Below the pieces are notes generated by a model that saw only the letters and a list, made by a program, of their open reading frames with translations, was not told the origin of the DNA and ran no database searches. A stretch of DNA of 64,000 nucleotides, taken from NCBI GenBank assembly GCA_949358305.1, contig OX442314.1, positions 6,820,001 to 6,884,000 on the forward strand. Direction: 5' to 3'. The position numbers were made by a program, and so were the translations under genes. Below, in pieces: positions 13,789-54,522 of this stretch. Every line of letters begins with the position of its first letter. The stretch's first letter is position 1. The stretch comes from Strigamia acuminata (taxonomy: Eukaryota).

Positions 13789-14363
13789 GCTTTGAAGCAT
13801 CATATTACAACAGAATTTTAATAATTTTGCCAACAAAAGTAGCGGTTTGGTTTATCACACTATGTTTGTTCAAACCACTACTAGATTTCAACAATTCCGT
13901 TTCTCACAAGCTGATCAAAAAAAATTGTTGGCAGCCATTTTGAGAAATCATAAGGAAACGACATCTGATTGGCTGCCTTATTTTGTAAGGTACTCTCATA
14001 AAAATCCTTATAGTCCATCCTTATGCTTATGAGGCCATAAGGTAATAAGGCTGGCCATTTATACGGAAAAAGACATGTCCGCAAACTCTTACGTTTAAGC
14101 TTATATTAACGTAAAATCACAGCTTTTTTCATGACCTACTGTAGTCCCACAGATTTAAATAAGAAATATAATGCAAAATAAGTACTTGACGAGAAGACAT
14201 TGGTTGAGAAGATTACGTCTGACGATTCGCCAATTTATGAATGATGATTCAAATCAACCGCGCTGTGGTTTAATTGGTTTGGATGATGTCGTGTACAGTA
14301 GAAAACGTTGGAGCAAGCGTCACACCTTTTGGCTGCTGTTGTTCTTATTGTGCACAAGCATGC

Positions 14364-15322
14364 TGTGGTGATCTCAAAATATTCACCAACTTAGAAGATT
14401 AAATTAATTATCTTCTAATTAATTTGACTGTGGCACACGCCAAGTCAGATCATGTGACCGAGGGGAGAAATCCTCTCTAGGCACATATCACCCCAGGTTG
14501 TCCGGGGTGAAAACGGTTATTAGCCGTTATGGTGCAATATGGTGTAATAACCACTAGTTGCACCCATTTGAGCTAAGTGCGCAGGTTTTCTGCGCAATAT
14601 TGAAGCGTGCTGGGCTCGCGTCTTGGCTCAAATCGGGACTCTGAAAAATACAACAACAACCTCAACATCACTGCTTTTGCTCCTGAAAGAAAAGTATTGA
14701 TAGAGGACCGTTGTAACTCAGTTTCACCTGCTATCTTTGTGTATCAAACGCACAAAGCCAGCAATCCTGCTTGAATTAGCCGTCGCTAATTCCAGCAATC
14801 GAGAAGAGAAGATTCCCGACGATCGTGAACCATCGCCGTCGCTGTTGCGCGAACGACAGCCACCGCCATCGTACGAAAGCCGGACGCCTACAGCCGTCAA
14901 CCACCGCCGCCGAGCCGTCGCACGAGCCGTAGAAGGAGCCCACGAGAACCATCGTCTTCGACCATCGTTCGTGAGTTCGTAGAACGAAGACAATTTGCCT
15001 TCGCCTAACAACTTCAAGTTGTTTAAGCGCCATTTCTGACGCTTTGTAGCTTGTAACAGTCGTTGCAAGCCCTTCCTTTGTTTCATTGTTTCCCGCTCAT
15101 TTTATTCTGTGATATTCATAATCATAATTAGTATATATTGTAATTTATCGAATAAAACATTTGTGTGATTTTTATTACCATAATAAACTGTCTTTTTATT
15201 CCTATTTCCGTAAACTTAACCCTAGACAAGTTTCGGCCGCGATATAAGTCTTGTAAAGCATTCACCTGCGGTTTCTGCTTAATTTATTAGAAATTAAGTG
15301 GATAAAAACCCGGATCGCAGCA
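14364..15322 (+). repeat. 5' LTR (959 bp)
   Basis: TGTGGTGATC...GATCGCAGCA; no differences seen by eye from 31499-32457; AATAAA at ~15151 and ~15182. Confidence 0.95.
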
Positions 15323-15324
15323 CG

Positions 15325-15342
15325 TGGGGGCCCGTCCGGGAT
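15325..15342 (+). promoter_or_regulatory. Primer-binding site, tRNA-Pro
   Basis: TGGGGGCCCGTCCGGGAT, 2 nt after the LTR; one mismatch to the MLV-type tRNA-Pro PBS TGGGGGCTCGTCCGGGAT. Confidence 0.9.
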
Positions 15343-15436
15343 AGTCATTGTATAAATTTTGATAGTTTAAAATTTACCCGCCATTTTTATCTTGCTTATC
15401 TTTCTTCTCTATCCTTTCTTTGTCTTCATTTGAAAA

Positions 15437-18400
15437 ATGGCGACTCCAGGCGAAAAGAGACCGAGAGGCAGACCAGCGAAGAGACGAGTGGCGATCGATC
15501 TACCAGCCGTGGATCAAGAAGTGACTGAGTCACAAGAACTGTTTGAAACTATGGATCAAACAGCTAACTGTAACTCGGCACAGTTAATCGTGAATGAATT
15601 CACGCAAGCGTTGGAGCGACAACAGCCATCCCCGCCCAGCGGCCAGTTGGACTTAAAAAATCCAACTGGAAGTGGCCGTTCCAAGTCGCAAAACGATGAT
15701 TTGAATTTACGAATTCAATCATCAAGTGCGGAGCACTCGCTGAATTCATCACCGGTTCAAGGTGCAGCACAACAAGATTCTGAGAACTCCAATATGGAAG
15801 TTTCTCATTCTCCCGTGCGTGTTACCATGATGGACGCACTCCGTGAGCAAGCTAGGCTCGAGGGAGTAAAAGTCACTAGCGAAATGACTGTGGAACAAAT
15901 CCACAAAGCTATGGTTCGCAAACAAAGCCAAAAAGACGTTGAAATCGTCAGAACAAGCTTGCAAGCAGAGTTCGAGCGAATGCGTGCAGAAATGCATCAG
16001 CAAAATGCCGAACTAAAACAACAACGTGCGAATGACCATGTTAAGTTGTTACAATTAGAACAGGAAAAAGCTTCCTGGCTAATTACTGACGAAGAGCAAC
16101 AACAAAGGCTCGAGCAACTAAATCAAGCCCAAAAAGATTTAGAAATTGCTAATGAAAATTTGAGATTGGCCAACGCAAATTTGCGAGAAGCCAACACAAA
16201 TTTAATGACTGCCGAACTAACCGCCCCAGTTCGAGCGAGGGAAGTAATTCCCTCCACTTCTCGAAATTACGAGAATCATGCTGCAGAGCAAGCAGCAAGA
16301 GCTAAGAGATTAGCACAACGAGAAAACGAAGTATTTCTCGCTCGACAGCAGTCCGTAATTGATGCTGGTCTAGCCGCCAAAAGTCAAAGTACTGCAGAGC
16401 AGTTATTACGTGCCGACTTAGCTGCGCAAGCTCGTGAAAACGAAATTCTTCGCGCAGATCTATTGACGGTACAAGAGAACTTTGCAGTAGTAGTACAAAA
16501 AGTACAAGACGTTTGTGGCGAAGATAATTTTGCAAAGCCAGCCCCAGTTTTGCAAAAAGGTGCTTCCAAATCACCTGAGTTGATTGATTTAACATCAGCT
16601 AAACCAAAAGTCAGTCGACAATCAAGTTGGACTGACAGTGATGACTCACGCAGTAGTCGTGGAAGCCGTAACAGTCATCACAGTCGCAAAAAGCGAAAGC
16701 GACAACCAGACCCGACCGAATATCATTCCCCAAAAGTTACGCAAGATTCGGATCGATTCTTTAGCAATAGCGACCGATTAATCGGAATGCTAGAGAAAAA
16801 GAATAAAGAACGTGAGAAACCACACGATCGTGGACGGTCACACGATAATCCGCGAGAAGGCTCACCAAAACGAGATTGTCATAACGACATCCGTGATGGG
16901 CCGAGATACCGTGGAAATCCGCCAGGTGGTGACCCACCAGGTGGAGATAGTTCAGATGGACATGGAGGTGGCCACTCACGTGACCACAATTCGAATGGCA
17001 ATCGAAATGGAAGGGGACCACCAAATGGAGACCGTCGTCCGCCAGATGGCGACGATCCTCCGGACCCTGATCCGCCGCCAAATCCGAATCATGAATCTGC
17101 GTCAGATACAGATTCCTCACGTCCCAGTGTGAGAGGGCGATCTCGTCACAGAACACGTAGTAGAACTCAAAGACCCGATTTCTACACGAAAGATGAGATT
17201 GACCAGTTGTTGAGGCAAAATGCTCAACAACAGCGAAAAAGCAGAAGGGATAAAATTATTTTGCAAAAAATAAGTGAATTTACTTCTGATAAATGGACTC
17301 ATCAAACAACAGATGAAAAGTTCATTAGATGGGATCGAGTTATCCCACATGCCTATAATGGAAATTGGCAAGCAGGGTCAAACCTCTTGCTGGAAATATT
17401 CGAACTAGGCAAAGTTCACAGTTTTAGCTGTGAAGGTGCATTGGCCCATCTAGTACCAAGAATACTAGTTGGCGGTGTCAAGGAGTGGTTTCGCAGGAAA
17501 GACTTCACGAAGTGGGATGACTTCGTTAAACAATTTATGTTTAAATTTGGTGAATCGAGCGAAGACATCAAAACGCTCTGGAGATGTCTTAAGCAACGAA
17601 AAGGCGAAAGCTTACATTCGTACATGCTAAGAGCAGAGAATCTGCTTGGCAGAATGCCACATGCTGTTACTGATGCAACAGCAGATGATCAGTTTAGAGC
17701 TGGCCTCACAGAATATAGTAAAAATATTCTGATGATGTCGGACGCTCCCGACCCGGGGAAATTCTCCGAGTTAAACGAATTCATGGAAGTCAATCAATTG
17801 CGCATTGACGAAAAGTACAAAGCTTATCTTACAGAAGCCGAAAGGTCAGCGTACTTAAAGCGAGAGAAAAGACTCGCTGAGCAAAACAATGAAACCTTTA
17901 ATGGTTTGAAATTGTTGCAGCCACCTAGTTACGAAGACTTTCTAGACGAAGTGGATGAGAAGAGTTCGAAAAAAGAATCTTCCAAAAAGGACGTCAAAAA
18001 TCCTCATTCAGTCCCTAAGTTACACGCAAATATAACTGGAGCTGAAACTCCGTCGTCTGAAGCTGAAGAAGCTGAAGAGGAGGAGGAAACAGGAGACGAG
18101 ACGATGGCTTTATTGGCCAAAGCAGCGGCGTTGTTAGCAAAAAATAACCCCGTTGCGGGCAAATGGAAGCCAAGGATGAAACCAAAAAATGTTTCATTTG
18201 ACGCATCAAAGGTGAATACCGAAAGGAATTCAAAGTCACCTGCGGTGTCGCCAGAGCGCCGGTCTGACGCTCGTTCTCGTTCTGCCTCGCCAGCAGCAAC
18301 GAAAAAGAAATCGCCTGCCACTGATCCATGCAATTTATGCAAAAAATTAGGGCATTGGCAAAAAGACTGCCCTTCCTCTAAAAAGGACAAACCAGTGTCA

Positions 18401-18460
18401 ACAGCTGAGTTTGAAAAAGCAGTCAAGATCATAACTGACATGTTTCGAAAAAACTTGTAG
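15437..18460 (+). CDS. gag: Gag polyprotein (1007 aa)
   Basis: Coiled-coil-like N-terminus, capsid-like segment (W..F...F...FG...LKQRKGESLHSY), C-terminal CCHC knuckle CNLCKKLGHWQKDC. Confidence 0.92.
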   Translation: MATPGEKRPRGRPAKRRVAIDLPAVDQEVTESQELFETMDQTANCNSAQLIVNEFTQALERQQPSPPSGQLDLKNPTGSGRSKSQNDDLNLRIQSSSAEHSLNSSPVQGAAQQDSENSNMEVSHSPVRVTMMDALREQARLEGVKVTSEMTVEQIHKAMVRKQSQKDVEIVRTSLQAEFERMRAEMHQQNAELKQQRANDHVKLLQLEQEKASWLITDEEQQQRLEQLNQAQKDLEIANENLRLANANLREANTNLMTAELTAPVRAREVIPSTSRNYENHAAEQAARAKRLAQRENEVFLARQQSVIDAGLAAKSQSTAEQLLRADLAAQARENEILRADLLTVQENFAVVVQKVQDVCGEDNFAKPAPVLQKGASKSPELIDLTSAKPKVSRQSSWTDSDDSRSSRGSRNSHHSRKKRKRQPDPTEYHSPKVTQDSDRFFSNSDRLIGMLEKKNKEREKPHDRGRSHDNPREGSPKRDCHNDIRDGPRYRGNPPGGDPPGGDSSDGHGGGHSRDHNSNGNRNGRGPPNGDRRPPDGDDPPDPDPPPNPNHESASDTDSSRPSVRGRSRHRTRSRTQRPDFYTKDEIDQLLRQNAQQQRKSRRDKIILQKISEFTSDKWTHQTTDEKFIRWDRVIPHAYNGNWQAGSNLLLEIFELGKVHSFSCEGALAHLVPRILVGGVKEWFRRKDFTKWDDFVKQFMFKFGESSEDIKTLWRCLKQRKGESLHSYMLRAENLLGRMPHAVTDATADDQFRAGLTEYSKNILMMSDAPDPGKFSELNEFMEVNQLRIDEKYKAYLTEAERSAYLKREKRLAEQNNETFNGLKLLQPPSYEDFLDEVDEKSSKKESSKKDVKNPHSVPKLHANITGAETPSSEAEEAEEEEETGDETMALLAKAAALLAKNNPVAGKWKPRMKPKNVSFDASKVNTERNSKSPAVSPERRSDARSRSASPAATKKKSPATDPCNLCKKLGHWQKDCPSSKKDKPVSTAEFEKAVKIITDMFRKNL

Positions 18461-18494
18461 ACGCAGATCCATCAGGTCTAGTGGACGCTGCGTC
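18448..18494 (+). promoter_or_regulatory. -1 programmed ribosomal frameshift signal
   Basis: Slippery heptamer A_AAA_AAC in the gag frame just before the gag stop; downstream stem GACGCAG/CTGCGTC; pol is in the -1 frame and open from the heptamer. Confidence 0.85.
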
Positions 18495-21400
18495 ACCTCC
18501 GAAATCGGAATCAGAGAATGAAAATCTGAAGATAATGGAAGATGTTGGAGAAGTTATTGATGAATTAATTCGTCAAACAGAACTAAAAGAAAAAGGATCT
18601 CTTGATGTAAAAAAGGAGATTGTCGGCGAAACCCCGACTGAAGAAGACACTTCCAATATTCAAGATAAAGTCGAAGTTAAAGACGATAGACCAAGCTCAG
18701 TTCCAGAGACACCTGGAATTGAGGAATGCATTAAGTTATTTGCAACTACAACTCTTGATACCAATGAGTTATTAGATGAATTGCCTTTGGAGCCTCCAAT
18801 TACAATTCCTCATAAATTGCGCAAGTTTGAGTGCAAAGTGGCTGGAATACCAAACAGCCAAGACCTTCCGACGTTAAAGTTAGAAACGTTAAAAGGTGTA
18901 ATAACCGGAATGTTGGACTCAGGAGCAAATAAAAGCTTCCTAGCCACTTCAGTTATTAATCAATTAGGTCTAGAAAAATATCTACGACCTATCGGACCTG
19001 GTGTCAGAGTTACGACGGCAAGTGAAGAAGTCACTCCAGATGGAACCATCCATCTTTCATTTCGATGGACACATGGCACGTTACGTCATCCGTTCATCGT
19101 AATACCAAATAAGTATCCAATGGTACTATTGGGTTGCGATTTTATGAATAAATTAAAAATCCAACCTAATCCACAGACGATGTCTTGGAATTTCACGCAA
19201 CCTATGGATGCAGATTTACCCTACATTCCACAAGCGTTGCTGGATCGTTATTTGGAGAAAATAGAGGAACCCGATTCCTCATTTATGACCTTTGCAAAAG
19301 CTTACGCTGCAAGTGTAACTCAAGGCAAAATTGATGAAGAGAATTTCATCCAAAAGTTAGTCGAAGAAGCTAACTTAAATTTGGAGCAATCCAAATTATT
19401 AGAAAAGATGTTATCCAAACATAAAAGGATTATTTCTAAAGATCCAGGTAAAACACACCTGGTTAAGCACAAAATTGAGCTTGACACGGAGAAACCCATC
19501 CGTGTCCCCTTTAAGAGCATAAACCCTCAAAAAAGGGAAATAATCAGACAACTTTGTCAAGACATGATTGACAAAGGCGTAGTCGTCAAAGCTGAAGGCG
19601 ATTACGGAATGCGGCCAGTCCTAGTCATGCGACCAGGAAACGACCCACGCTTGTGCATTGATTTTCGCCCCATCAATACACATACTAAGTACAACCCACC
19701 TCAAATGCCAACAATTGAGGAAATTCTGCGAGAAATCGGAGAATTCGAATGGGTCAGTACTATAGATCTGACCAAGGGATATTGGCAGATAGAATTGCGA
19801 CCTGAAGACAGAGAAAAAACTGCCTTCTGGAGCCCAATGGGAAGACTAATGTTTTTAGTCATGCCTTTCGGATTAGTAAACGCACCAACTACCTTCCAAG
19901 AATTAATGGAAAAAGTTTTGGGTGACGTTTACAGAAAATTTGCATGGGCATATTTGGATGACATAATTATTGTATCCAAATCGTTCGAAGAACACATTAA
20001 ACATTTAGATATAGTGTTTAAAAAATTGGCAGAAGCTAATTTACATGCGCACCCTGGCAAGACGCATCTCTGTAGAAAGGAATTAATTTTTCTAGGCTAC
20101 AAAGTAGGAGTAGAAGGACTTGCAGTAGACCCTAAAAAAGTCGCTGCAATTACGCAATTTCCTGCTCCTACCAATCTTAAGGAATTACAAAGATTTCTAG
20201 GCATGGTGAATTTCTTTCACCGCCTAATCAAGAATTTGGCCACAGTGGCAGAACCACTAAGGCCACTCTTGAAGAAAGATGCGGAGTTCGATTGGGAACT
20301 GCATCATCAAGCAGCATTCGACGCAATAAAAGACCTGCTTACGAATGCTGAAACAATGAAGATGCCTGACTTGTACATGCCATTTATTGTTCATACTGAC
20401 GCCAGTAAACAAGGGTTGGGTGCAGCCCTTACACAAAAGAAAAATGTGGATGGCCAAGAAGTCGAAATGCCATGCGTGTATGCAAGCAGAAGCTTGCAAC
20501 CCGCTGAAAAGAATTATACTGTGACAGAATTAGAATGTCTCGCAGTAGTATGGGGATTACGCAAATTTCGCCCATACTTAGAGTACACTACATTCACTGT
20601 ACAAACGGATCACCAAGCACTTAGGTGGTTGATGTCGTTATCTGACCCGTCGGGCAGATTAGCTCGTTGGCAAATGGAGCTGATGGCGTATTCGTTCGAA
20701 ATACAATACGTCAAAGGTCCGCTAAATGTAATAGCAGACGCATTGTCACGTGCACCTGTCAGCGCACCTGACGAACCAGAAGACGATGGCGATAATGATG
20801 ATTTATTATCATATTGTCCATCTCCTTGCCGAAGTTGGCAAATGGGAAAATTGAACGAATTACCCAAGTCAATAATAGTTAATGACGACGATCAAGCATT
20901 AATTAATTTTTGTATTAACATGCATGATCCGTCAGGAACCCCTGACGTCGAATTAAGAGCTATGATGGCTAAAAAATTCGAGCTGCCAACAACAAATGTT
21001 TTAATTAAAGCATTTGCAGCTAAAATTGCGAAGCAATTAGAATGTGATCCTCCAACGAGAGATGACATTATTGCAGCGCAAAAAGCAGACGAATTTTGCC
21101 AACATATTCGCAATTACTTGCTAAACAAGCAATATCCAAGTTACATAGTAACTCGTCTTCAAAGAAGAAACTTTGAAAGACACGCGAGTACTTATCTCAT
21201 TGAAGAAGATATGCTACTCCATTATCATCCTACCTCCACCGATGAATTGGGAGAGGATGGTAGGGCACTTAAAGTTGTTGTGCCAAGAAAATTGATTTAT
21301 AAAATCATTTGGTTGATGCACGGACATCCACTGTCCGGCCACCCAGGCATTGCGAGGACAATGTACCGAACTCGAAGAGTTTATACCTGGAAAGGTATGA

Positions 21401-22707
21401 AACGTGATATTACACGTTTTATTCAACATTGTCAAGGATGTCAGGCATGTAAGCCGAGATCAAAGACCGAAATTGAAGGCGCTCAAATTGGACCATTTGG
21501 ACCATTTGACTGCCTCAGTGTGGATTTGTCTGGTCCCAAACCAAGAACCAGAAAAAACAATACCCACATTTGCGTCATCGTAGATGTCGCTACACATTGG
21601 CCCGAATTATTTCCAATGTGTAATCCAACGGCAATAAAAGTTGCCAACACAATTTATCACTTATCAATGACTTTCGGATTTCCGAGACAAATCATAAGTG
21701 ATAATGGACCACAATTTCGATCACAGGTCTATAAAGAATTTTGCAAAAAATTCGACATGTCGCGAACACCGACATCGATTTATCATCCACAAAGCAATCC
21801 TGTGGAGAGAACCAATCGAGATATTAAATATTTAGTTTCGATTTATTTAGATATTCATGACCAATGGGATGAGTATCTACGCGAATTTGCATTCAGTTTG
21901 AGAACAACTGTAACAAGAGGCAGAGATTATTCTCCTGCTTTCTTAAATTTTTTCCGAGAATTAAGAATTCCTTGGGATCCAAGAATTCCGGAAGGAATTT
22001 TAGTCATTGATCCAAAAAATCCGCATTTATATGTTCAGAAATTAGAAACAATAATTGCAGAGACGTATCAGCATATGATGTCTCACGTCTTAGATTTGAG
22101 ACGCCGTGTCGAAGCTGAAAAATCAGATAAGAAATTCGACAACTTCAGACAAAATGATTTAGTCTGGCGAGAGTCTCATATTCTCTCAAATGCCGCTAAA
22201 GGAATAGCAGCAGGCATTTCACCGAAAAGGAATGGGCCTTATGTAATTATCAAAAGGTTACAAGGAGGCGCCTTTCAACTTCGACGGCTGAGTGATAATA
22301 AAATTTATCCAGCTGTTCACGGCACTGAATTAATGCCGTACTTTCCCGTTTTCAACCAAGAAATTTGGCTGGAAGGGGAGGAAGTGGGTCAAAAAACAAA
22401 AAATATTGTTAATACCTTGGATGATGCTAAATTATCCAAAATTCCTGTCGAAAACACGGAATCGAGTAAAAAATCGAAACTCAAAAATAACGAAGTCGAT
22501 GAAATAAACCAGCGACTTGAAAATGTTTCTCTTGATGAAAATCTAGAAAAGGAAATGTTTTTAGAAAAAGAGAAAATTTCAAACAATGAAGTATATAACT
22601 CATCTGACATTGGAGACGATGCTGATGACAATCTAAACAAGTTGGATTGTACTTCGCGAAAGTCAAAGTACAACTTGAGATCTCGCGTTCCGCGAGCCAA
22701 GACATAG
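18481..22707 (+). CDS. pol: Pol: aspartic protease, reverse transcriptase, RNase H, integrase
   Basis: LDSGA protease, YLDD RT, TDAS RNase H, HHCC zinc motif, VDLSGP/SDNGPQF/VERTNR integrase triad, GPY motif; no stops or frameshifts. Confidence 0.97.
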   Translation: MDAASPPKSESENENLKIMEDVGEVIDELIRQTELKEKGSLDVKKEIVGETPTEEDTSNIQDKVEVKDDRPSSVPETPGIEECIKLFATTTLDTNELLDELPLEPPITIPHKLRKFECKVAGIPNSQDLPTLKLETLKGVITGMLDSGANKSFLATSVINQLGLEKYLRPIGPGVRVTTASEEVTPDGTIHLSFRWTHGTLRHPFIVIPNKYPMVLLGCDFMNKLKIQPNPQTMSWNFTQPMDADLPYIPQALLDRYLEKIEEPDSSFMTFAKAYAASVTQGKIDEENFIQKLVEEANLNLEQSKLLEKMLSKHKRIISKDPGKTHLVKHKIELDTEKPIRVPFKSINPQKREIIRQLCQDMIDKGVVVKAEGDYGMRPVLVMRPGNDPRLCIDFRPINTHTKYNPPQMPTIEEILREIGEFEWVSTIDLTKGYWQIELRPEDREKTAFWSPMGRLMFLVMPFGLVNAPTTFQELMEKVLGDVYRKFAWAYLDDIIIVSKSFEEHIKHLDIVFKKLAEANLHAHPGKTHLCRKELIFLGYKVGVEGLAVDPKKVAAITQFPAPTNLKELQRFLGMVNFFHRLIKNLATVAEPLRPLLKKDAEFDWELHHQAAFDAIKDLLTNAETMKMPDLYMPFIVHTDASKQGLGAALTQKKNVDGQEVEMPCVYASRSLQPAEKNYTVTELECLAVVWGLRKFRPYLEYTTFTVQTDHQALRWLMSLSDPSGRLARWQMELMAYSFEIQYVKGPLNVIADALSRAPVSAPDEPEDDGDNDDLLSYCPSPCRSWQMGKLNELPKSIIVNDDDQALINFCINMHDPSGTPDVELRAMMAKKFELPTTNVLIKAFAAKIAKQLECDPPTRDDIIAAQKADEFCQHIRNYLLNKQYPSYIVTRLQRRNFERHASTYLIEEDMLLHYHPTSTDELGEDGRALKVVVPRKLIYKIIWLMHGHPLSGHPGIARTMYRTRRVYTWKGMKRDITRFIQHCQGCQACKPRSKTEIEGAQIGPFGPFDCLSVDLSGPKPRTRKNNTHICVIVDVATHWPELFPMCNPTAIKVANTIYHLSMTFGFPRQIISDNGPQFRSQVYKEFCKKFDMSRTPTSIYHPQSNPVERTNRDIKYLVSIYLDIHDQWDEYLREFAFSLRTTVTRGRDYSPAFLNFFRELRIPWDPRIPEGILVIDPKNPHLYVQKLETIIAETYQHMMSHVLDLRRRVEAEKSDKKFDNFRQNDLVWRESHILSNAAKGIAAGISPKRNGPYVIIKRLQGGAFQLRRLSDNKIYPAVHGTELMPYFPVFNQEIWLEGEEVGQKTKNIVNTLDDAKLSKIPVENTESSKKSKLKNNEVDEINQRLENVSLDENLEKEMFLEKEKISNNEVYNSSDIGDDADDNLNKLDCTSRKSKYNLRSRVPRAKT

Positions 22708-22759
22708 TGTTGTCTTTCACCTTTTGGGTTTACCCAAAAGATCCGAGAAAGCAATCTCG

Positions 22760-22872
22760 TGACGTCATTCGTAGTACCCACTCGAATGACAACGTTAATC
22801 ATACGTTATAATTAGTGACGTCACAAAGCGTCTCTAATCCAAGTTCGTGTTTGCAATCAACGAACTTAGTCA
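22760..22872 (+). promoter_or_regulatory. Candidate internal promoter for ORF3
   Basis: Two perfect TGACGTCA (CRE) palindromes (22760-22767, 22816-22823) and Inr-like TTAGTC (22866-22871) about 30 nt upstream of ATG 22897. Confidence 0.45.
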
Positions 22873-22896
22873 CTTTTTCAAAAGTTTCGAGAGTGT

Positions 22897-25692
22897 ATGC
22901 ATCGCATCGCCTACGTTACGACCCGAATAGTTCGACAACCTGATCGTAAGTAATTTTTCTGTATGAAAAATTTGATAAAACATAAGATTTATGTATTATT
23001 TCTCTTTCAAGACGAAAGAATTTCCGAAATTACCGGAAAACGAAAGAGAATGGACGAGGAAGCGATCCAACTCCAGGCGGACGGAGAAATGCCCATGGAA
23101 GGGGCAAATGAAGACGTTCAATTGACGCTTCAACAACGGGTAAATTATTAGAATAAATTTTTACCAAGTGTTTAAGTCAGAAAAATTGAGTAATTTCACT
23201 TTTCCTGACTTCAAACACAAGCCGCTAAAAAATAAAAATGGCGGCTATAAAAGTCACGTGCTTCAAGCATGTGCGAAGGGAGTTGCCATGACAACCAACA
23301 TCCCTTAGTGACTCACAGCCACAAGCGCTAAGCTTAAAAAATATTTCAAATAAGAAATTATTTGTTTATTTTTAAATAAACTAATTTATTTATTTTTCTT
23401 CGAATACAGATCGAGAGGGATCGAGAAACGCCATTCGCGCTTCCCGATCACGTGCCGACTCAGCACCCGCTGATTTTTCGAGCGGCATTGCCCGAAAAAA
23501 TCAGAAGACTGAAGACGGCAAACAATACCTGGTGGAAGTTGCGCCACGACTTCAGCAGATCAGCGCTGCAAGGATTTGGTGCAAAAGGAAGATTCATCGA
23601 GCGCCTTCACGTGGACGGTGTCGACGAAATCGAGTGGACGCTCGACGAGAGCCCCCCAGGACCGCTTGCAGCAGAGTTGCTGCACAACCAGTGGCCAGTG
23701 ACGCCACGAGAGCGTCACGAGCGCAGAAGAGCGCTAAAGAGTACCGGAATTAATTACGGTGCTCTAACCCAATTGAGGAAGAACCTCAAGACGACACAAC
23801 GCGAAGTCGTTAAACGGTATCGCAAATCCGTTCGTGACGGGAACCCACAACTTCCCGTCACACAAACCGAGCTCCACCAGTTGGCGCTCGCCGGGTGTTT
23901 TAACGATTTTCCGGGATTTTTCCCGTCCAAAGCACTCAGAGCTGCCGCGGTGCAGCTTCGCGTCGACGAAAATCGACAACTGGCTCGAGAACACGAGGCA
24001 GAGGAGCAAGCGCGTTGCGCTCTCCCTTTTTATCAAGAAGATGAAATTCCGGCCCCAGCGGCCATCAATCCTCCGCCGCAAGACGAGGATTTGAGGGTGG
24101 GGCAACTCCCTCCGCCGGTTCCAGTCCGACCGATGTTCCGCGAATCAAGCCGCGATCGAGAGGAACGTCAGAAGCGATCACGCCCATATTCGACTGACGC
24201 GCAGCCATCACGCCCGCAGTCGCGACGAGGACGGACACCAGAGTCGTTTGGCTCGTCGTCTTCGCTGAGTTTTGAATCGGACTCCACAATTAAGTCCGCC
24301 CGAAGTAGCCGAACCGCCTCCACGTTCAAAGTGGACAACTCGGCTACTCCATACGCCATGAGACGTGTTGTCGGTGATATTTCTCCCGACTGTAGCGTGC
24401 CAGTACCTGGACATGCTAGCCGCTTGCCCGAACAAGGATATGTTTCCCGCTTGCCGGCTGGAGTTAGCAACCTGCAACTCCGGCCATTTTTTAGTGAGTC
24501 ATTCGGCCCACAATGGACCTGCTACGAGCAGCAACCCATTAGAGCACAGCAGGAAGTGCTCCAGAAGCTGGACGCATACCAAAGCGCCCAGATCGCCGAG
24601 TCGCAGAAGGACTGGCAGAGACTAGCTGAAAGGCTAGAAGTCTCCGACATCAATACCATTGATGATCCCCGTCTGATGGATTTTCAGCGTCAGCTAATTC
24701 CGGGGATGACTAGGGTGTTGTACCCTGGTGTTCTTCCTTCGCCAGGACAGGCGTTAGCGGCCATAACGTACCTTTGGACCGCGCCGATGGGCCTGTCGGA
24801 GAAGAAAGTCGAGCTGTGGTACCACCTCAGGCTCGACCCGCCTACGATCTTAGCCGAGCTAATAAAGCAAGTCGTAGCAAACGGTGAGACCGAAGAAGAG
24901 GCCGCCGTTCGGTTGCGAACCGAGTGGTCCTTTGCGAAGGCCACGGCGCGAATGACCGGAAGACCACCGCTTCCAGTTACAAGCGCCACAGCAGCTGCGT
25001 CACTGGCTGTTTTCCAGTCGGCCCAAGAGGGCGCTGGATGTTCATTTTGGCCAGAGAACGCCGGAAGTTCTCAAACTCCAGCCGGAGTTCAACGGGTAGT
25101 CGAAACCCGTCAGCTCCCCGGTGTGGGTCGAGCACCGGGACGAGGCGTCACACCCTCGTCAACCTCCGCACCTGCGTTGGTTTTCTTGGGCCCGCAGTGC
25201 CAGTTTGACGATGCCACGACGGAAGACTCACGTCCGCCGCCGCCGCCGCCAGCCAAGCCGGAGACGAAGGTCAAGCCGCTGAAAAAAGAGTCGGCTTTCA
25301 AGACCCTAATGCGCCTGTATCCGCACTTCTATTTGACGCCGGATACGCGAACACTGCTTAGCAACAACCACAAGTTGTCGAGGCAGGTGTTTATGTGGCT
25401 CGAGGACCACATCCGGGTGTTAAGCCCACCATCGGTGCTCCATGATCGACTCCTGAGAGCACGATTAGCGCCAGAGGATCCAATCGAGTTCGCGGCGCTA
25501 GGATTCTTCAACCGAGCGAACTCGGCAAGAATCATCCAGGTTTGGCTTCATGTCAACCCTGGAATGGTCTCCGGACCAAACGCAGGTCGCGACCTGTGTA
25601 CGGTTAACGAGCGGTCCAACCCGAGGGACGACACCACGGATATGATGCGCCCGTTGACGCCTGAGCGAACTCAGACCATGGACGAATCATAA
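22897..25692 (+). CDS. Spliced accessory gene (ORF3) of unknown function, ~819 aa; exons 22897-22945, 23012-23139, 23410-25692
   Basis: Introns GTAAGT...TTTCAAG (66 nt, phase 1) and GTAAAT...TACAG (270 nt, phase 0) join three GC-richer segments into one open frame that ends in the 746-aa ORF; no signal peptide or TM anchor evident. Confidence 0.75.
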
Positions 25693-25731: not shown

Positions 25732-25744
25732 AAATGGGGGGATG
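25732..25744 (+). promoter_or_regulatory. Polypurine tract
   Basis: AAATGGGGGGATG directly before the LTR TG; repeated at 31486-31498. Confidence 0.8.
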
Positions 25745-26434
25745 TGTGGTGATCTCAAAATATTCACCAACTTAGAAGATTAAATTAATTATCTTCTAAT
25801 TAATTTGACTGTGGCACACGCCAAGTCAGATCATGTGACCGAGGGGAGAAATCCTCTCTAGGCACATATCACCCCAGGTTGTCCGGGGTGAAAACGGTTA
25901 TTAGCCGTTATGGTGCAATATGGTGTAATAACCACTAGTTGCACCCATTTGAGCTAAGTGCGCAGGTTTTCTGCGCAATATTGAAGCGTGCTGGGCTCGC
26001 GTCTTGGCTCAAATCGGGACTCTGAAAAATACAACAACAACCTCAACATCACTGCTTTTGCTCCTGAAAGAAAAGTATTGATAGAGGACCGTTGTAACTC
26101 AGTTTCACCTGCTATCTTTGTGTATCAAACGCACAAAGCCAGCAATCCTGCTTGAATTAGCCGTCGCTAATTCCAGCAATCGAGAAGAGAAGATTCCCGA
26201 CGATCGTGAACCATCGCCGTCGCTGTTGCGCGAACGACAGCCACCGCCATCGTACGAAAGCCGGACGCCTACAGCCGTCAACCACCGCCGCCGAGCCGTC
26301 GCACGAGCCGTAGAAGGAGCCCACGAGAACCATCGTCTTCGACCATCGTTCGTGAGTTCGTAGAACGAAGACAATTTGCCTTCGCCTAACAACTTCAAGT
26401 TGTTTAAGCGCCATTTCTGACGCTTTGTAGCTTG
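25745..26434 (+). repeat. 3' LTR, truncated by the assembly gap
   Basis: Same sequence as the first 690 bp of the 5' LTR. Confidence 0.92.
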
Positions 26435-26634
26435 NNNNNNNNNNNNNNNNNNNNNNNNNNNNNNNNNNNNNNNNNNNNNNNNNNNNNNNNNNNNNNNNNN
26501 NNNNNNNNNNNNNNNNNNNNNNNNNNNNNNNNNNNNNNNNNNNNNNNNNNNNNNNNNNNNNNNNNNNNNNNNNNNNNNNNNNNNNNNNNNNNNNNNNNNN
26601 NNNNNNNNNNNNNNNNNNNNNNNNNNNNNNNNNN
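26435..26634. other. Assembly gap (200 N)
   Basis: Run of 200 N. Confidence 1.
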
Positions 26635-28461
26635 AATGACGACGATCAAGCATTAATTAATTTTTGTATTAACATGCATGATCCGTCAGGAACCCCTGAC
26701 GTCGAATTAAGAGCTATGATGGCTAAAAAATTCGAGCTGCCAACAACAAATGTTTTAATTAAAGCATTTGCAGCTAAAATTGCGAAGCAATTAGAATGTG
26801 ATCCTCCAACGAGAGATGACATTATTGCAGCGCAAAAAGCAGACGAATTTTGCCAACATATTCGCAATTACTTGCTAAACAAGCAATATCCAAGTTACAT
26901 AGTAACTCGTCTTCAAAGAAGAAACTTTGAAAGACACGCGAGTACTTATCTCATTGAAGAAGATATGCTACTCCATTATCATCCTACCTCCACCGATGAA
27001 TTGGGAGAGGATGGTAGGGCACTTAAAGTTGTTGTGCCAAGAAAATTGATTTATAAAATCATTTGGTTGATGCACGGACATCCACTGTCCGGCCACCCAG
27101 GCATTGCGAGGACAATGTACCGAACTCGAAGAGTTTATACCTGGAAAGGTATGAAACGTGATATTACACGTTTTATTCAACATTGTCAAGGATGTCAGGC
27201 ATGTAAGCCGAGATCAAAGACCGAAATTGAAGGCGCTCAAATTGGACCATTTGGACCATTTGACTGCCTCAGTGTGGATTTGTCTGGTCCCAAACCAAGA
27301 ACCAGAAAAAACAATACCCACATTTGCGTCATCGTAGATGTCGCTACACATTGGCCCGAATTATTTCCAATGTGTAATCCAACGGCAATAAAAGTTGCCA
27401 ACACAATTTATCACTTATCAATGACTTTCGGATTTCCGAGACAAATCATAAGTGATAATGGACCACAATTTCGATCACAGGTCTATAAAGAATTTTGCAA
27501 AAAATTCGACATGTCGCGAACACCGACATCGATTTATCATCCACAAAGCAATCCTGTGGAGAGAACCAATCGAGATATTAAATATTTAGTTTCGATTTAT
27601 TTAGATATTCATGACCAATGGGATGAGTATCTACGCGAATTTGCATTCAGTTTGAGAACAACTGTAACAAGAGGCAGAGATTATTCTCCTGCTTTCTTAA
27701 ATTTTTTCCGAGAATTAAGAATTCCTTGGGATCCAAGAATTCCGGAAGGAATTTTAGTCATTGATCCAAAAAATCCGCATTTATATGTTCAGAAATTAGA
27801 AACAATAATTGCAGAGACGTATCAGCATATGATGTCTCACGTCTTAGATTTGAGACGCCGTGTCGAAGCTGAAAAATCAGATAAGAAATTCGACAACTTC
27901 AGACAAAATGATTTAGTCTGGCGAGAGTCTCATATTCTCTCAAATGCCGCTAAAGGAATAGCAGCAGGCATTTCACCGAAAAGGAATGGGCCTTATGTAA
28001 TTATCAAAAGGTTACAAGGAGGCGCCTTTCAACTTCGACGGCTGAGTGATAATAAAATTTATCCAGCTGTTCACGGCACTGAATTAATGCCGTACTTTCC
28101 CGTTTTCAACCAAGAAATTTGGCTGGAAGGGGAGGAAGTGGGTCAAAAAACAAAAAATATTGTTAATACCTTGGATGATGCTAAATTATCCAAAATTCCT
28201 GTCGAAAACACGGAATCGAGTAAAAAATCGAAACTCAAAAATAACGAAGTCGATGAAATAAACCAGCGACTTGAAAATGTTTCTCTTGATGAAAATCTAG
28301 AAAAGGAAATGTTTTTAGAAAAAGAGAAAATTTCAAACAATGAAGTATATAACTCATCTGACATTGGAGACGATGCTGATGACAATCTAAACAAGTTGGA
28401 TTGTACTTCGCGAAAGTCAAAGTACAACTTGAGATCTCGCGTTCCGCGAGCCAAGACATAG
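26635..28461 (+). CDS. pol: Duplicate of pol 3' part (integrase)
   Basis: Same sequence as 20881-22707 (offset 5754). Confidence 0.85.
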   Translation, partial: NDDDQALINFCINMHDPSGTPDVELRAMMAKKFELPTTNVLIKAFAAKIAKQLECDPPTRDDIIAAQKADEFCQHIRNYLLNKQYPSYIVTRLQRRNFERHASTYLIEEDMLLHYHPTSTDELGEDGRALKVVVPRKLIYKIIWLMHGHPLSGHPGIARTMYRTRRVYTWKGMKRDITRFIQHCQGCQACKPRSKTEIEGAQIGPFGPFDCLSVDLSGPKPRTRKNNTHICVIVDVATHWPELFPMCNPTAIKVANTIYHLSMTFGFPRQIISDNGPQFRSQVYKEFCKKFDMSRTPTSIYHPQSNPVERTNRDIKYLVSIYLDIHDQWDEYLREFAFSLRTTVTRGRDYSPAFLNFFRELRIPWDPRIPEGILVIDPKNPHLYVQKLETIIAETYQHMMSHVLDLRRRVEAEKSDKKFDNFRQNDLVWRESHILSNAAKGIAAGISPKRNGPYVIIKRLQGGAFQLRRLSDNKIYPAVHGTELMPYFPVFNQEIWLEGEEVGQKTKNIVNTLDDAKLSKIPVENTESSKKSKLKNNEVDEINQRLENVSLDENLEKEMFLEKEKISNNEVYNSSDIGDDADDNLNKLDCTSRKSKYNLRSRVPRAKT

Positions 28462-28650
28462 TGTTGTCTTTCACCTTTTGGGTTTACCCAAAAGATCCGA
28501 GAAAGCAATCTCGTGACGTCATTCGTAGTACCCACTCGAATGACAACGTTAATCATACGTTATAATTAGTGACGTCACAAAGCGTCTCTAATCCAAGTTC
28601 GTGTTTGCAATCAACGAACTTAGTCACTTTTTCAAAAGTTTCGAGAGTGT

Positions 28651-31446
28651 ATGCATCGCATCGCCTACGTTACGACCCGAATAGTTCGACAACCTGATCG
28701 TAAGTAATTTTTCTGTATGAAAAATTTGATAAAACATAAGATTTATGTATTATTTCTCTTTCAAGACGAAAGAATTTCCGAAATTACCGGAAAACGAAAG
28801 AGAATGGACGAGGAAGCGATCCAACTCCAGGCGGACGGAGAAATGCCCATGGAAGGGGCAAATGAAGACGTTCAATTGACGCTTCAACAACGGGTAAATT
28901 ATTAGAATAAATTTTTACCAAGTGTTTAAGTCAGAAAAATTGAGTAATTTCACTTTTCCTGACTTCAAACACAAGCCGCTAAAAAATAAAAATGGCGGCT
29001 ATAAAAGTCACGTGCTTCAAGCATGTGCGAAGGGAGTTGCCATGACAACCAACATCCCTTAGTGACTCACAGCCACAAGCGCTAAGCTTAAAAAATATTT
29101 CAAATAAGAAATTATTTGTTTATTTTTAAATAAACTAATTTATTTATTTTTCTTCGAATACAGATCGAGAGGGATCGAGAAACGCCATTCGCGCTTCCCG
29201 ATCACGTGCCGACTCAGCACCCGCTGATTTTTCGAGCGGCATTGCCCGAAAAAATCAGAAGACTGAAGACGGCAAACAATACCTGGTGGAAGTTGCGCCA
29301 CGACTTCAGCAGATCAGCGCTGCAAGGATTTGGTGCAAAAGGAAGATTCATCGAGCGCCTTCACGTGGACGGTGTCGACGAAATCGAGTGGACGCTCGAC
29401 GAGAGCCCCCCAGGACCGCTTGCAGCAGAGTTGCTGCACAACCAGTGGCCAGTGACGCCACGAGAGCGTCACGAGCGCAGAAGAGCGCTAAAGAGTACCG
29501 GAATTAATTACGGTGCTCTAACCCAATTGAGGAAGAACCTCAAGACGACACAACGCGAAGTCGTTAAACGGTATCGCAAATCCGTTCGTGACGGGAACCC
29601 ACAACTTCCCGTCACACAAACCGAGCTCCACCAGTTGGCGCTCGCCGGGTGTTTTAACGATTTTCCGGGATTTTTCCCGTCCAAAGCACTCAGAGCTGCC
29701 GCGGTGCAGCTTCGCGTCGACGAAAATCGACAACTGGCTCGAGAACACGAGGCAGAGGAGCAAGCGCGTTGCGCTCTCCCTTTTTATCAAGAAGATGAAA
29801 TTCCGGCCCCAGCGGCCATCAATCCTCCGCCGCAAGACGAGGATTTGAGGGTGGGGCAACTCCCTCCGCCGGTTCCAGTCCGACCGATGTTCCGCGAATC
29901 AAGCCGCGATCGAGAGGAACGTCAGAAGCGATCACGCCCATATTCGACTGACGCGCAGCCATCACGCCCGCAGTCGCGACGAGGACGGACACCAGAGTCG
30001 TTTGGCTCGTCGTCTTCGCTGAGTTTTGAATCGGACTCCACAATTAAGTCCGCCCGAAGTAGCCGAACCGCCTCCACGTTCAAAGTGGACAACTCGGCTA
30101 CTCCATACGCCATGAGACGTGTTGTCGGTGATATTTCTCCCGACTGTAGCGTGCCAGTACCTGGACATGCTAGCCGCTTGCCCGAACAAGGATATGTTTC
30201 CCGCTTGCCGGCTGGAGTTAGCAACCTGCAACTCCGGCCATTTTTTAGTGAGTCATTCGGCCCACAATGGACCTGCTACGAGCAGCAACCCATTAGAGCA
30301 CAGCAGGAAGTGCTCCAGAAGCTGGACGCATACCAAAGCGCCCAGATCGCCGAGTCGCAGAAGGACTGGCAGAGACTAGCTGAAAGGCTAGAAGTCTCCG
30401 ACATCAATACCATTGATGATCCCCGTCTGATGGATTTTCAGCGTCAGCTAATTCCGGGGATGACTAGGGTGTTGTACCCTGGTGTTCTTCCTTCGCCAGG
30501 ACAGGCGTTAGCGGCCATAACGTACCTTTGGACCGCGCCGATGGGCCTGTCGGAGAAGAAAGTCGAGCTGTGGTACCACCTCAGGCTCGACCCGCCTACG
30601 ATCTTAGCCGAGCTAATAAAGCAAGTCGTAGCAAACGGTGAGACCGAAGAAGAGGCCGCCGTTCGGTTGCGAACCGAGTGGTCCTTTGCGAAGGCCACGG
30701 CGCGAATGACCGGAAGACCACCGCTTCCAGTTACAAGCGCCACAGCAGCTGCGTCACTGGCTGTTTTCCAGTCGGCCCAAGAGGGCGCTGGATGTTCATT
30801 TTGGCCAGAGAACGCCGGAAGTTCTCAAACTCCAGCCGGAGTTCAACGGGTAGTCGAAACCCGTCAGCTCCCCGGTGTGGGTCGAGCACCGGGACGAGGC
30901 GTCACACCCTCGTCAACCTCCGCACCTGCGTTGGTTTTCTTGGGCCCGCAGTGCCAGTTTGACGATGCCACGACGGAAGACTCACGTCCGCCGCCGCCGC
31001 CGCCAGCCAAGCCGGAGACGAAGGTCAAGCCGCTGAAAAAAGAGTCGGCTTTCAAGACCCTAATGCGCCTGTATCCGCACTTCTATTTGACGCCGGATAC
31101 GCGAACACTGCTTAGCAACAACCACAAGTTGTCGAGGCAGGTGTTTATGTGGCTCGAGGACCACATCCGGGTGTTAAGCCCACCATCGGTGCTCCATGAT
31201 CGACTCCTGAGAGCACGATTAGCGCCAGAGGATCCAATCGAGTTCGCGGCGCTAGGATTCTTCAACCGAGCGAACTCGGCAAGAATCATCCAGGTTTGGC
31301 TTCATGTCAACCCTGGAATGGTCTCCGGACCAAACGCAGGTCGCGACCTGTGTACGGTTAACGAGCGGTCCAACCCGAGGGACGACACCACGGATATGAT
31401 GCGCCCGTTGACGCCTGAGCGAACTCAGACCATGGACGAATCATAA
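28651..31446 (+). CDS. Duplicate of spliced ORF3; exons 28651-28699, 28766-28893, 29164-31446
   Basis: Same sequence as 22897-25692. Confidence 0.7.
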
Positions 31447-31498
31447 ATTGGTTCGTTCATTTTCTCTCCATGTAAGATTCGTCTTAAATGGGGGGATG

Positions 31499-32457
31499 TG
31501 TGGTGATCTCAAAATATTCACCAACTTAGAAGATTAAATTAATTATCTTCTAATTAATTTGACTGTGGCACACGCCAAGTCAGATCATGTGACCGAGGGG
31601 AGAAATCCTCTCTAGGCACATATCACCCCAGGTTGTCCGGGGTGAAAACGGTTATTAGCCGTTATGGTGCAATATGGTGTAATAACCACTAGTTGCACCC
31701 ATTTGAGCTAAGTGCGCAGGTTTTCTGCGCAATATTGAAGCGTGCTGGGCTCGCGTCTTGGCTCAAATCGGGACTCTGAAAAATACAACAACAACCTCAA
31801 CATCACTGCTTTTGCTCCTGAAAGAAAAGTATTGATAGAGGACCGTTGTAACTCAGTTTCACCTGCTATCTTTGTGTATCAAACGCACAAAGCCAGCAAT
31901 CCTGCTTGAATTAGCCGTCGCTAATTCCAGCAATCGAGAAGAGAAGATTCCCGACGATCGTGAACCATCGCCGTCGCTGTTGCGCGAACGACAGCCACCG
32001 CCATCGTACGAAAGCCGGACGCCTACAGCCGTCAACCACCGCCGCCGAGCCGTCGCACGAGCCGTAGAAGGAGCCCACGAGAACCATCGTCTTCGACCAT
32101 CGTTCGTGAGTTCGTAGAACGAAGACAATTTGCCTTCGCCTAACAACTTCAAGTTGTTTAAGCGCCATTTCTGACGCTTTGTAGCTTGTAACAGTCGTTG
32201 CAAGCCCTTCCTTTGTTTCATTGTTTCCCGCTCATTTTATTCTGTGATATTCATAATCATAATTAGTATATATTGTAATTTATCGAATAAAACATTTGTG
32301 TGATTTTTATTACCATAATAAACTGTCTTTTTATTCCTATTTCCGTAAACTTAACCCTAGACAAGTTTCGGCCGCGATATAAGTCTTGTAAAGCATTCAC
32401 CTGCGGTTTCTGCTTAATTTATTAGAAATTAAGTGGATAAAAACCCGGATCGCAGCA
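31499..32457 (+). repeat. 3' LTR (959 bp, complete)
   Basis: Matches the 5' LTR and is followed by the TSD ATGC. Confidence 0.95.
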
Positions 32458-34040: not shown

Positions 34041-34512
34041 GGGGTTTTGAATAAATGAGCGATTATTGTGATTAGTTTATTATTGCAATAATCATAATCA
34101 CTCAATTATTAAGGGCTCAACAAAAATCTGATTATGTAATTATTGCTGAATTGTTTAAATTGTAACCTAAATACGTTGCAATTGTTTAAAAAAAAGTTCC
34201 TACAAATAATAATTGCAACTACCTAACTCGTTTCATGTGTTCAGTTTAACCTAAACTGAGCAGACTTTGTTATATTATGACTTTGTGTAGTTTAAGCGGG
34301 TCTGGCGCCGCCATGTTGGTTTCAGTTGAGAGAGCACTTATAATCGGCCCAAGTCAGCAGAAGATCATGGTTTGGGGTGATTACTTGATTAGTTGCTTAG
34401 TTGCTTATTTGATAAAATGATTATTCTCGTGATTGGTTGAATCCAATCACATGACACATGAAGTAATCGACTAATCAAAGTAATCAACTAATCGCTCATT
34501 TAATGAAACCCC
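34041..34512. mobile_element. PIF/Harbinger-like MITE
   Basis: GGGGTTTTGAATAAATGAGCGATTA / TAATCGCTCATTTAATGAAACCCC with TAA/TTA flanks. Confidence 0.6.
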
Positions 34513-54259: not shown

Positions 54260-54522
54260 GATTTTCGCCCGAATTTGCCGATTTTCGTTCGATTTTGTCG
54301 ATTCTCGTCCAATTTTCGTCCGATTGTCGATTTTGTCGAATGTTCGTTTGATTCACGTCCAATTTACGTCCAATTTTCGTCCGAAATTTGTTTGATTGAC
54401 GTCCGAATCGTTCAGCAATCGTTCCGCGCGCACGTGTCGACTTCTGCCAGTTTTTCTCGAAAAAACTTCCAAAAAACGCAAAAAACTCCTAGTCTTTGGT
54501 CAAAAGCAAACTACTAGAGTAA

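What the first reader, a model, noticed from the sequence alone, without database searches (positions are those of the whole stretch)
22897..25692. Gypsy element carries a three-exon, intron-containing, non-Env accessory gene
Seen: upstream of the 746-aa ORF (which the track starts at a GTG) are two short coding-like segments separated by AT-rich introns with canonical ends. Phases match exactly (49 nt + 128 nt = 59 codons, then in frame into 23410), giving ~819 aa starting MHRIAYVTTRIVRQPDHERISEITGKRKRMDEE. The protein has basic NLS/RNA-binding-like patches (GKRKR, RERHERRR, RDREERQKRSR), Ser/Pro-rich linkers and globular-looking blocks, with no signal peptide or TM anchor. Known: this is the env position, and sense-strand introns survive reverse transcription only if the genomic RNA escapes splicing, as in complex retroviruses. 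Inference: a nuclear regulator or anti-silencing factor; I do not recognise the family.
Basis: partly seen in the sequence, partly recalled or inferred. Interest (0 to 1): 0.88.

Follow-up and report, generated by a model that had tools for sequence, protein, structure and literature searches.

The report
Spliced orphan gene in Gypsy retrotransposon
A young jumping gene in an animal genome carries, where a viral coat gene would sit, a conserved extra gene with no detectable relatives that is likely spliced from several exons and likely makes a nuclear protein that would help the element's unspliced RNA leave the nucleus, much as HIV Rev does.

Summary
The anatomy is confirmed. An intact Ty3/gypsy element (identical 959-bp LTRs, 4-bp target duplication, gag, pol) has a third ORF after pol. 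The stated exons (49, 128 and 2283 nt) join in frame to 819 aa and use the best-scoring splice signals. Among sister copies, 16 of 18 listed changes just after the exon-3 acceptor are synonymous, far upstream of exon 3's first ATG, so this region is coding and needs an upstream exon. The acceptor keeps YAG. Exons 1-2 rest on sequence signals only, and splicing itself was not observed. The protein has no transmembrane segment or signal peptide, and no match in Pfam, PDB, 1.84 billion representative proteins or fold searches. New here: a conserved candidate donor in the LTR, suggesting a four-exon env-like subgenomic mRNA, and structured RNA blocks after pol and in intron 2, whose variants fall mainly in loops. 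Best reading: a Rev/CERV-like nuclear regulator of unspliced RNA (0.4, inferred). Spliced and non-Env accessory genes of gypsy elements are known (C. elegans CERV, rotifer ORF3s), so this is a new variant of a known kind, not a new category.

The parts
14360..14363 (.). target-site duplication, left copy (4 bp); right copy at 32458-32461
14364..15322 (+). 5' LTR, 959 bp, TG...CA, identical to 31499-32457
14971..14976 (+). candidate major splice donor (GTGAGT) in the LTR, inside a 15-nt block identical in the sister LTR at 60273-61136; inferred
15325..15342 (+). primer-binding site, complementary to a tRNA 3' end (CCA); tRNA-Pro identity recalled, not tested
15437..18460 (+). gag (1007 aa, CCHC knuckle below Pfam cut-off)
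18439..22707 (+). pol in the -1 frame (PR-RT-RNaseH-IN); slippery-type A AAA AAC at 18448-18454
22708..22880 (+). array of short hairpins between the pol stop and ORF3, shared with diverged sister copies; also holds two TGACGTCA palindromes (22760, 22816); candidate cis-acting RNA element
22869..22884 (+). candidate acceptor (pyrimidine tract + AG at 22883-22884) 12 nt before the ATG; inferred
22897..22945 (+). first coding exon (ATG 22897, weak context; a second in-frame ATG in stronger context at 23050)
22946..23011 (+). intron, 66 nt, GC 0.20
23012..23139 (+). second coding exon, holds the KRKR motif
23140..23409 (+). intron, 270 nt; branch-point-like CTAAT at 23381; central structured block 23190-23335 shared with more diverged copies
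23410..25692 (+). last coding exon, 760 codons, under purifying selection; three predicted helical blocks with Pro/Ser-rich linkers
25732..25744 (+). polypurine tract
25745..26434 (+). 3' LTR, cut by the N gap at 26435-26634
26635..32457 (+). identical repeat of the element's 3' half ending in a complete LTR; most likely assembly overlap

Best explanation
The third ORF is a real, selected accessory gene of a young Ty3/gypsy retrotransposon, likely made from a multiply spliced mRNA and likely encoding a nuclear protein that would let the element's intron-containing genomic RNA escape splicing and leave the nucleus, in the manner of CERV or Rev. Shown: the element's anatomy, the open three-exon frame, purifying selection on exon 3 from its first codons, a kept acceptor, no TM segment or signal peptide, no detectable homologue. 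Inferred step 1: the LTR transcript splices from a donor at 14971 to an acceptor at 22884 and then removes the two small introns, so ATG 22897 is the first AUG. Inferred step 2: fully spliced mRNA is exported normally and makes the 92-kDa protein, which enters the nucleus through its basic motifs. Inferred step 3: it binds a structured element that only unspliced RNA holds (hairpin array 22708-22880 and/or the intron-2 block 23190-23335) and so allows gag-pol RNA to be exported, translated and packaged, which is why new copies keep the introns. My odds: about 0.9 that exon 3 is coding and fed by an upstream exon, about 0.75 for the exact exons 1-2, about 0.4 for this function.
For: Frame and signals. 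Selection: 16 of 18 listed changes in 23415-23580 are synonymous in the ORF frame, against 1 and 0 of 18 in the other two frames and 23-31% expected; exon 3's first in-frame ATG is codon 242, so an upstream exon or a non-AUG start is needed. 7 of 10 listed changes in 23766-25676 are synonymous, against 6 of 10 in gag and 5 of 10 in pol. The changes at 23398 and 23407 keep the pyrimidine tract and YAG; the three listed intron-2 indels are not multiples of 3, and the two listed in exon 3 cancel each other. LTR donor: second-longest identical run after 14700 in the sister-LTR alignment, and no ATG in the 897 nt before gag (13.8 expected). RNA structure: 22708-22850 folds with z -6.15 and 23190-23335 with z -3.0; 10 of 12 variable positions in the spacer and 5 of 5 in the intron block are unpaired. 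Protein: three NLS-type motifs (P about 0.011), Arg-rich patches, pI 9.0. Precedent: CERV is a multi-exon, nuclear, non-homologous protein with three structured domains, needed for Cer1 genomic RNA export (PMC10309623, sections 9 and 15).
Against: No functional evidence of any kind, and no sequence or fold link to CERV or Rev. The one NES-like motif is at chance level (1 seen, 0.62 expected). At 819 aa it is larger than CERV (517 aa) and lacks CERV's Cys loop (7 scattered Cys). Exons 1-2 could not be tested for selection, and sister lineages diverge over this region (loose ends at 22823, 22904, 23206 and 23358). 3 of 4 spacer indels fall at paired positions, the variants come from few contigs and are not independent, and several coding windows fold nearly as well (z -5 to -8 in my scan). 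Env-bearing gypsy elements and simple retroviruses keep an intron with no trans-acting factor, and cis elements such as the MusD MTE export RNA alone (PMC4588558, passages), so retained introns do not require a Rev-like protein. The conserved LTR block also holds a repeated CCATCG motif, which may be the conserved feature. Variant tables are cut to the best-supported rows (40 of 734, 40 of 42).
Confidence: 0.4

Rival explanations
1. Same spliced gene, but the protein is a nuclear anti-silencing factor or transactivator acting on the element's chromatin or LTR, and the hairpin array exports RNA by itself through host factors.
For: Nuclear-type motifs, helical blocks and disordered linkers fit equally well. 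The fast-changing N-terminal region among sister copies fits host conflict. Cis-only export is known (MusD MTE, PMC4588558, passages). VANC proteins of VANDAL DNA transposons are the recalled precedent.
Against: No DNA-binding, chromatin-reader or enzyme domain was found; no PxVxL-type motif beyond one weak Pro-rich match.
Confidence: 0.27
2. The protein acts later in the cycle: RNA chaperone or packaging factor, particle trafficking, nuclear import or target-site tethering.
For: Basic, Arg-rich and helical; ORF3s are separate transcription units with varied roles in rotifer elements (PMC5408684, abstract and passages).
Against: No similarity to the element's own gag or pol by tblastn; no zinc knuckle or capsid family hit.
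Confidence: 0.15
3. ORF3 is transcribed from an internal promoter rather than spliced from the LTR, or the upstream exons differ from the model (start at ATG 23050; promoter inside 'intron 2').
For: Two TGACGTCA palindromes and an Inr-like TTAGTC before the ATG; TATAAA (23246), YY1-like, E-box and AP-1-like words in the conserved intron-2 block (motif names recalled). ATG 22897 has weak context and ATG 23050 a stronger one.
Against: These words lie inside predicted stems, and variants favour loops. The first ATG after the intronic TATA box (23288) is not in frame with exon 3 through the one nearby donor (by inspection). This rival changes the route of expression, not the protein's reality.
Confidence: 0.12
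4. A very diverged Env or other membrane fusogen.
For: Position after pol and an env-like donor/acceptor layout.
Against: No signal peptide, no TM segment (best 19-residue hydropathy 1.0), one glycosylation sequon, 7 Cys in 819 aa, all-helical low-confidence model, no Pfam hit.
Confidence: 0.03
5. Neutral cargo: a captured host gene fragment or nested element with no role for the retrotransposon.
For: GC 0.57 against about 0.40-0.45 in gag/pol suggests a different origin.
Against: Purifying selection across diverged copies; no terminal inverted repeats around the ORF; no host homologue found.
Confidence: 0.03

Closest known systems
CERV of the C. elegans Ty3/gypsy element Cer1 (PMC10309623; abstract and sections 6, 9, 15 read)
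   Same: Multi-exon spliced accessory gene inside an LTR retrotransposon; no homology to known proteins; candidate NLS; three structured domains joined by flexible linkers; genomic RNA keeps usable splice sites.
   Different: CERV is 517 aa, shares exons 1-3 with gag and has a Cys loop and a G-protein-like domain; this gene lies wholly after pol, has its own exons, 819 aa and no Cys cluster. No sequence relationship was detected (no hit of any kind). CERV's function is shown; here it is inferred.
Non-Env ORF3s of bdelloid rotifer LTR retrotransposons (PMC5408684; abstract and passages)
   Same: Third ORF in the env slot that is not Env; the paper notes that ORF3s are typically expressed from spliced messages.
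   Different: Those are recognisable enzymes (DEDDy exonuclease, GDSL esterase) or TM proteins; the word 'intron' does not occur in that paper's main text. This one is an orphan with two introns inside its coding region.
sORF1 and sORF2 of Drosophila 412/MDG1 elements (10.1101/2025.03.14.642691; passages)
   Same: Selected accessory ORFs; sORF1 is nuclear and of unknown role.
   Different: About 110 and 70 aa, upstream of gag, unspliced; sORF2 is a TM fusogen.
Env of errantiviruses and other env-carrying Ty3/gypsy elements (PMC13524379; abstract, passages, section 5 part 1)
   Same: gag-pol-ORF3 order; probably the same LTR-donor subgenomic splice.
   Different: No F- or gB-type features, no signal peptide, no TM anchor.
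Rev/RRE and Rex/RxRE of complex retroviruses; MusD MTE (PMC4588558, passages; Rev details partly recalled)
   Same: Proposed logic: a protein from fully spliced RNA and a structured element in unspliced RNA.
   Different: Different virus family, far smaller proteins, no sequence similarity; the hairpin array matches no Rfam family at its threshold.

Membership tests
Ty3/gypsy LTR retrotransposon (Metaviridae) | LTRs with TG...CA ends, PBS, PPT, target-site duplication | tested here: met
Ty3/gypsy LTR retrotransposon (Metaviridae) | pol order PR-RT-RNaseH-IN | tested here: met
   Pfam RVT_1, RT_RNaseH, Integrase_H2C2, rve above cut-off, protease below cut-off
Ty3/gypsy LTR retrotransposon (Metaviridae) | clade by RT phylogeny | not tested
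   No tree built; nearest Pol proteins are about 37-47% identical over half the region
Env (F-type or gB-type) | signal peptide and C-terminal TM anchor | tested here: not met
   hydropathy scan
Env (F-type or gB-type) | profile match to an Env or fusion-protein family | tested here: not met
   no Pfam family at E<=0.1 for exon 3
Env (F-type or gB-type) | fusogen fold | tested here: inconclusive
   model pLDDT 40.8, single sequence; fold searches uninformative
FAST/sORF2-type fusogen | small single-TM protein with polybasic tail | tested here: not met
   819 aa, no TM
CERV family | sequence homology to CERV | tested here: not met
   no hit at E<=0.001 among 1.84 billion representatives; CERV itself was not fetched for a pairwise test
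CERV family | shares exons with gag; Cys loop | tested here: not met
   gene lies after pol; 7 dispersed Cys
CERV family | G-protein-like domain | tested here: inconclusive
   low-confidence all-helical models
Rev/Rex/CERV-like regulators (works like) | encoded by a multiply spliced mRNA | tested here: inconclusive
   DNA signals and selection support it; spliced RNA not observed
Rev/Rex/CERV-like regulators (works like) | NLS / Arg-rich motif | tested here: met
   three K[KR]x[KR] motifs, P about 0.011, motif level only
Rev/Rex/CERV-like regulators (works like) | leucine-rich NES | tested here: inconclusive
   one pattern match, 0.62 expected by chance
Rev/Rex/CERV-like regulators (works like) | structured response element in unspliced RNA | tested here: inconclusive
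   candidates at 22708-22880 and 23190-23335; binding untested
Rev/Rex/CERV-like regulators (works like) | required for export of unspliced RNA | not testable with these tools
   needs experiments

The most novel reading that the evidence does not exclude
An independently evolved complex-retrovirus-style regulatory module in an animal Ty3/gypsy element: a four-exon subgenomic mRNA encodes a new nuclear protein family that recognises a hairpin array kept only in unspliced RNA and licenses its export, while the N-terminal exons change quickly between sister lineages and the RNA element and C-terminal exon are conserved.
Probability: 0.3. Interest if true: 0.8.

Novelty: new variant of a known kind. 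Interest (0 to 1): 0.56.

Why it matters
How LTR retrotransposons export intron-containing genomic RNA is known for very few elements; among gypsy elements, CERV is the one protein-based case my searches found. A second, unrelated protein with candidate response elements at defined coordinates would show that Rev-like regulation arose more than once outside retroviruses, and it can be tested with small reporters. If the protein instead counters silencing, it would be a rare retrotransposon-encoded anti-silencing factor in an animal. Either way it is a large selected protein with no detectable relative, and ORF-based annotation would miss its start.

Tried and rejected
No host genome is held for this window, so full-length sister copies and a proper dN/dS were out of reach. 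No RNA holder listed; the two runs found (X1, X2; one study; kind not on record) cover the element evenly, introns included, and may be the window's own source. No joint at either intron was listed among 157 and 363 contigs laid (one joint, 22879 to 23566), and 19 of 34 joints were not shown; contigs drop rare variants, so this does not show that intron-less copies are absent. Homologue searches with exon 3 were all blank: 5.8-billion set, near lengths and shorter lengths at E<=1, 7994 candidates scored each; phmmer on 1.84 billion representatives; PDB sequences; Pfam whole and by block, only sub-threshold hits; PHROGs and NCBIfam; viral and metagenome contigs with ORF3, Pol or Gag. Exons 1-2 were not part of these queries, except exon 2 alone against Pfam. 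Structure: single-sequence models had pLDDT 40.8 and 44.1; Foldseek gave no match at E<=0.001; VIA best Z 6.2 and 6.5, generic helical bundles; the first and third helical blocks were not folded alone. The ESM Atlas gave no answer. Rfam: 13 matches at E<=10, all far below gathering score. Nested DNA transposon rejected. The second ORF3 copy rejected as independent evidence. Contig depth was not used as copy number. Eight literature searches (listings read, six papers opened) showed no description of this protein or of a multi-intron orphan ORF after pol in an animal gypsy element; the library lacks most subscription papers, and no supplements were read, so element catalogues in supplements (such as those of PMC13524379) may hold relatives.

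Full report
Context. The finding lies in a complete LTR retrotransposon. The 5' LTR (14364-15322, 959 bp, TG...CA) is identical to the LTR at 31499-32457, and a 4-bp duplication flanks the whole. A primer-binding site follows at 15325-15342 (tRNA-Pro identity recalled). gag (15437-18460) and pol (18439-22707, -1 frame) are open, and Pfam places PR, RT, RNase H and integrase in Ty3/gypsy order. The stretch 26635-32457 repeats the 3' half without a single difference across a 200-N gap, so I treat it as an assembly overlap. The insertion splits a DEG/ENaC exon, so the host is an animal. The nearest Pol proteins are only about 37-47% identical over half the region searched and come from arachnids, insects, a fish and unnamed assemblies; I did not place the element in a clade or identify the host.

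The observation. The introns are AT-rich (GC 0.20 and 0.31) against 0.51, 0.48 and 0.57 for the exons. Scored by consensus alone, the two donors and the intron-1 acceptor rank first in the region, and exon 2 is open only in the required frame. An alternative in-frame intron 1 (22950-23018) has a weaker donor, and a second in-frame ATG (23050) has better context than ATG 22897, so the extreme N-terminus is less certain than the rest.

Is it a gene? Two public runs hold the element. Their contigs cover it evenly, introns included, and show many variant copies. Of the 40 rows shown (2 more not shown), 18 fall in exon 3 at 23415-23580. 16 of these 18 are synonymous in the ORF frame, 1 and 0 in the other frames, against 23-31% expected (binomial P below 1e-6; the variants are not independent). 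This region lies up to 240 codons before exon 3's first ATG, so it is translated from an upstream exon or a non-AUG start. The changes at 23398 and 23407 keep the pyrimidine tract and the YAG acceptor. The three listed indels in intron 2 are 1, 1 and 2 nt, and the two in exon 3 cancel. Over the rest of exon 3, 7 of 10 listed changes are synonymous, compared with 6 of 10 in gag and 5 of 10 in pol (40 of 734 rows shown). Against this: no variant was listed in exons 1-2, one 486-nt contig spans them unchanged, and other lineages leave the sequence at 22823, 22904, 23206 and 23358. The N-terminal exons are therefore untested and apparently variable between lineages. Splicing was not observed in RNA.

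Additions to the model. First, a GTGAGT donor at 14971 in the LTR sits in a 15-nt run identical in a sister LTR elsewhere in the window, the second-longest such run after 14700. An acceptor-like site lies 12 nt before ATG 22897, and the leader has no ATG for 897 nt. Together these suggest an env-like subgenomic mRNA with four exons. The same block holds a repeated CCATCG word, so the donor reading is inferred. Second, the 170 nt after the pol stop fold into a row of hairpins (z -6.15, 0 of 200 shuffles as stable); this was the best of 120 windows in the element, although several coding windows came close. 10 of 12 variable positions are unpaired (57 of 159 positions unpaired, P 7e-4, few contigs), while 3 of 4 indels touch stems. 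The middle of intron 2 also folds (z -3.0), is shared with more diverged copies, and has 5 of 5 listed substitutions unpaired. Neither block matches Rfam at threshold. Both also contain promoter-like words, so a DNA-level role is not excluded.

The protein. It is 92 kDa with pI 9.0 and three predicted helical blocks joined by Pro/Ser/Gly-rich linkers. It has no signal peptide or TM segment, one glycosylation sequon and 7 scattered cysteines, so it is not Env or a FAST-type fusogen. Three K[KR]x[KR] motifs occur where 0.46 are expected (P 0.011); the single NES-like match is at chance level. Every homology search with exon 3 was blank, and the single-sequence models were too poor for fold searches to mean anything.

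Mechanism. The genomic RNA must keep gag-pol and these splice sites to make new full copies, while ORF3 needs them removed. The reading I favour is that default splicing makes ORF3 mRNA, and that its nuclear product binds a structured element found only in unspliced RNA and lets that RNA out. This is the logic shown for CERV of Cer1 (PMC10309623, abstract and sections 6, 9, 15). I give it 0.4. An anti-silencing or transactivating role with cis-only export, as for the MusD MTE (PMC4588558, passages), is the main rival at 0.27. A later-cycle role (0.15), a different promoter or exon layout (0.12), Env (0.03) and neutral cargo (0.03) follow. Nothing here tests function directly.

Comparison and novelty. 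It belongs to the Ty3/gypsy elements by anatomy. It is not a member of the Env, sORF2/FAST or CERV families by the features tested. Non-Env ORF3s are known from rotifers (PMC5408684, abstract and passages), accessory sORFs from Drosophila (10.1101/2025.03.14.642691, passages), and accessory ORFs from planarian and fish elements (PMC6431247, passages). Env-carrying relatives are surveyed in PMC13524379 (abstract, passages, section 5 part 1). Unchecked notes from this scan report other orphan ORF3s in other genomes; they suggest the kind recurs and are not support, and none was found by sequence. Eight paper searches showed no description of this protein or of two introns inside a post-pol ORF of an animal gypsy element; supplements were not read. 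Verdict: observation confirmed, interpretation partly supported, new variant of a known kind, interest 0.56.

Noticed in passing
window 14180-14363 and 32458-32715: The element is inserted into a coding exon of a DEG/ENaC (amiloride-sensitive channel) gene: both sides are open and the right side matches Pfam ASC (E 3e-5). Further ASC pieces lie at 34507-34995 and 41270-41758. This marks the host as an animal and the insertion as gene-disrupting.
   Followed up: partly
window 26435-32457: 200-N gap followed by a 100% identical repeat of 20881 onward; one target-site duplication flanks the whole, so most likely an assembly overlap.
   Followed up: yes
window 60273-61136: LTR of a sister family, 74% identical by blastn, with ragged ends and no adjacent internal region seen; lies beside a BEL/Pao gag (DUF1759, 58738-60237, minus strand).
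   Followed up: partly
window 14825-14977: The word CCATCG recurs several times in the LTR and is conserved in the sister LTR; a possible protein- or RNA-level signal.
   Followed up: no
window 14540-15436: 897 nt with no ATG on the + strand (13.8 expected, 17 on the - strand): a long, selected 5' leader.
   Followed up: partly
window 14364-14483, 25764-25983, 19464-19583: Other strongly folding windows in the element (LTR U3 and inside RT), z about -5 to -8 in my scan.
   Followed up: no
window 50279-54732: Ty1/copia element on the minus strand with 97% identical terminal repeats.
   Followed up: no
window 62050-63975: Pieces of another gypsy-type pol on the minus strand, 27-29% identical to this Pol.
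   Followed up: no
window 20730-20960 (approximate): Pol has an unusually long stretch between RNase H and the integrase zinc domain, and an acidic C-terminal tail of about 110 aa.
   Followed up: no
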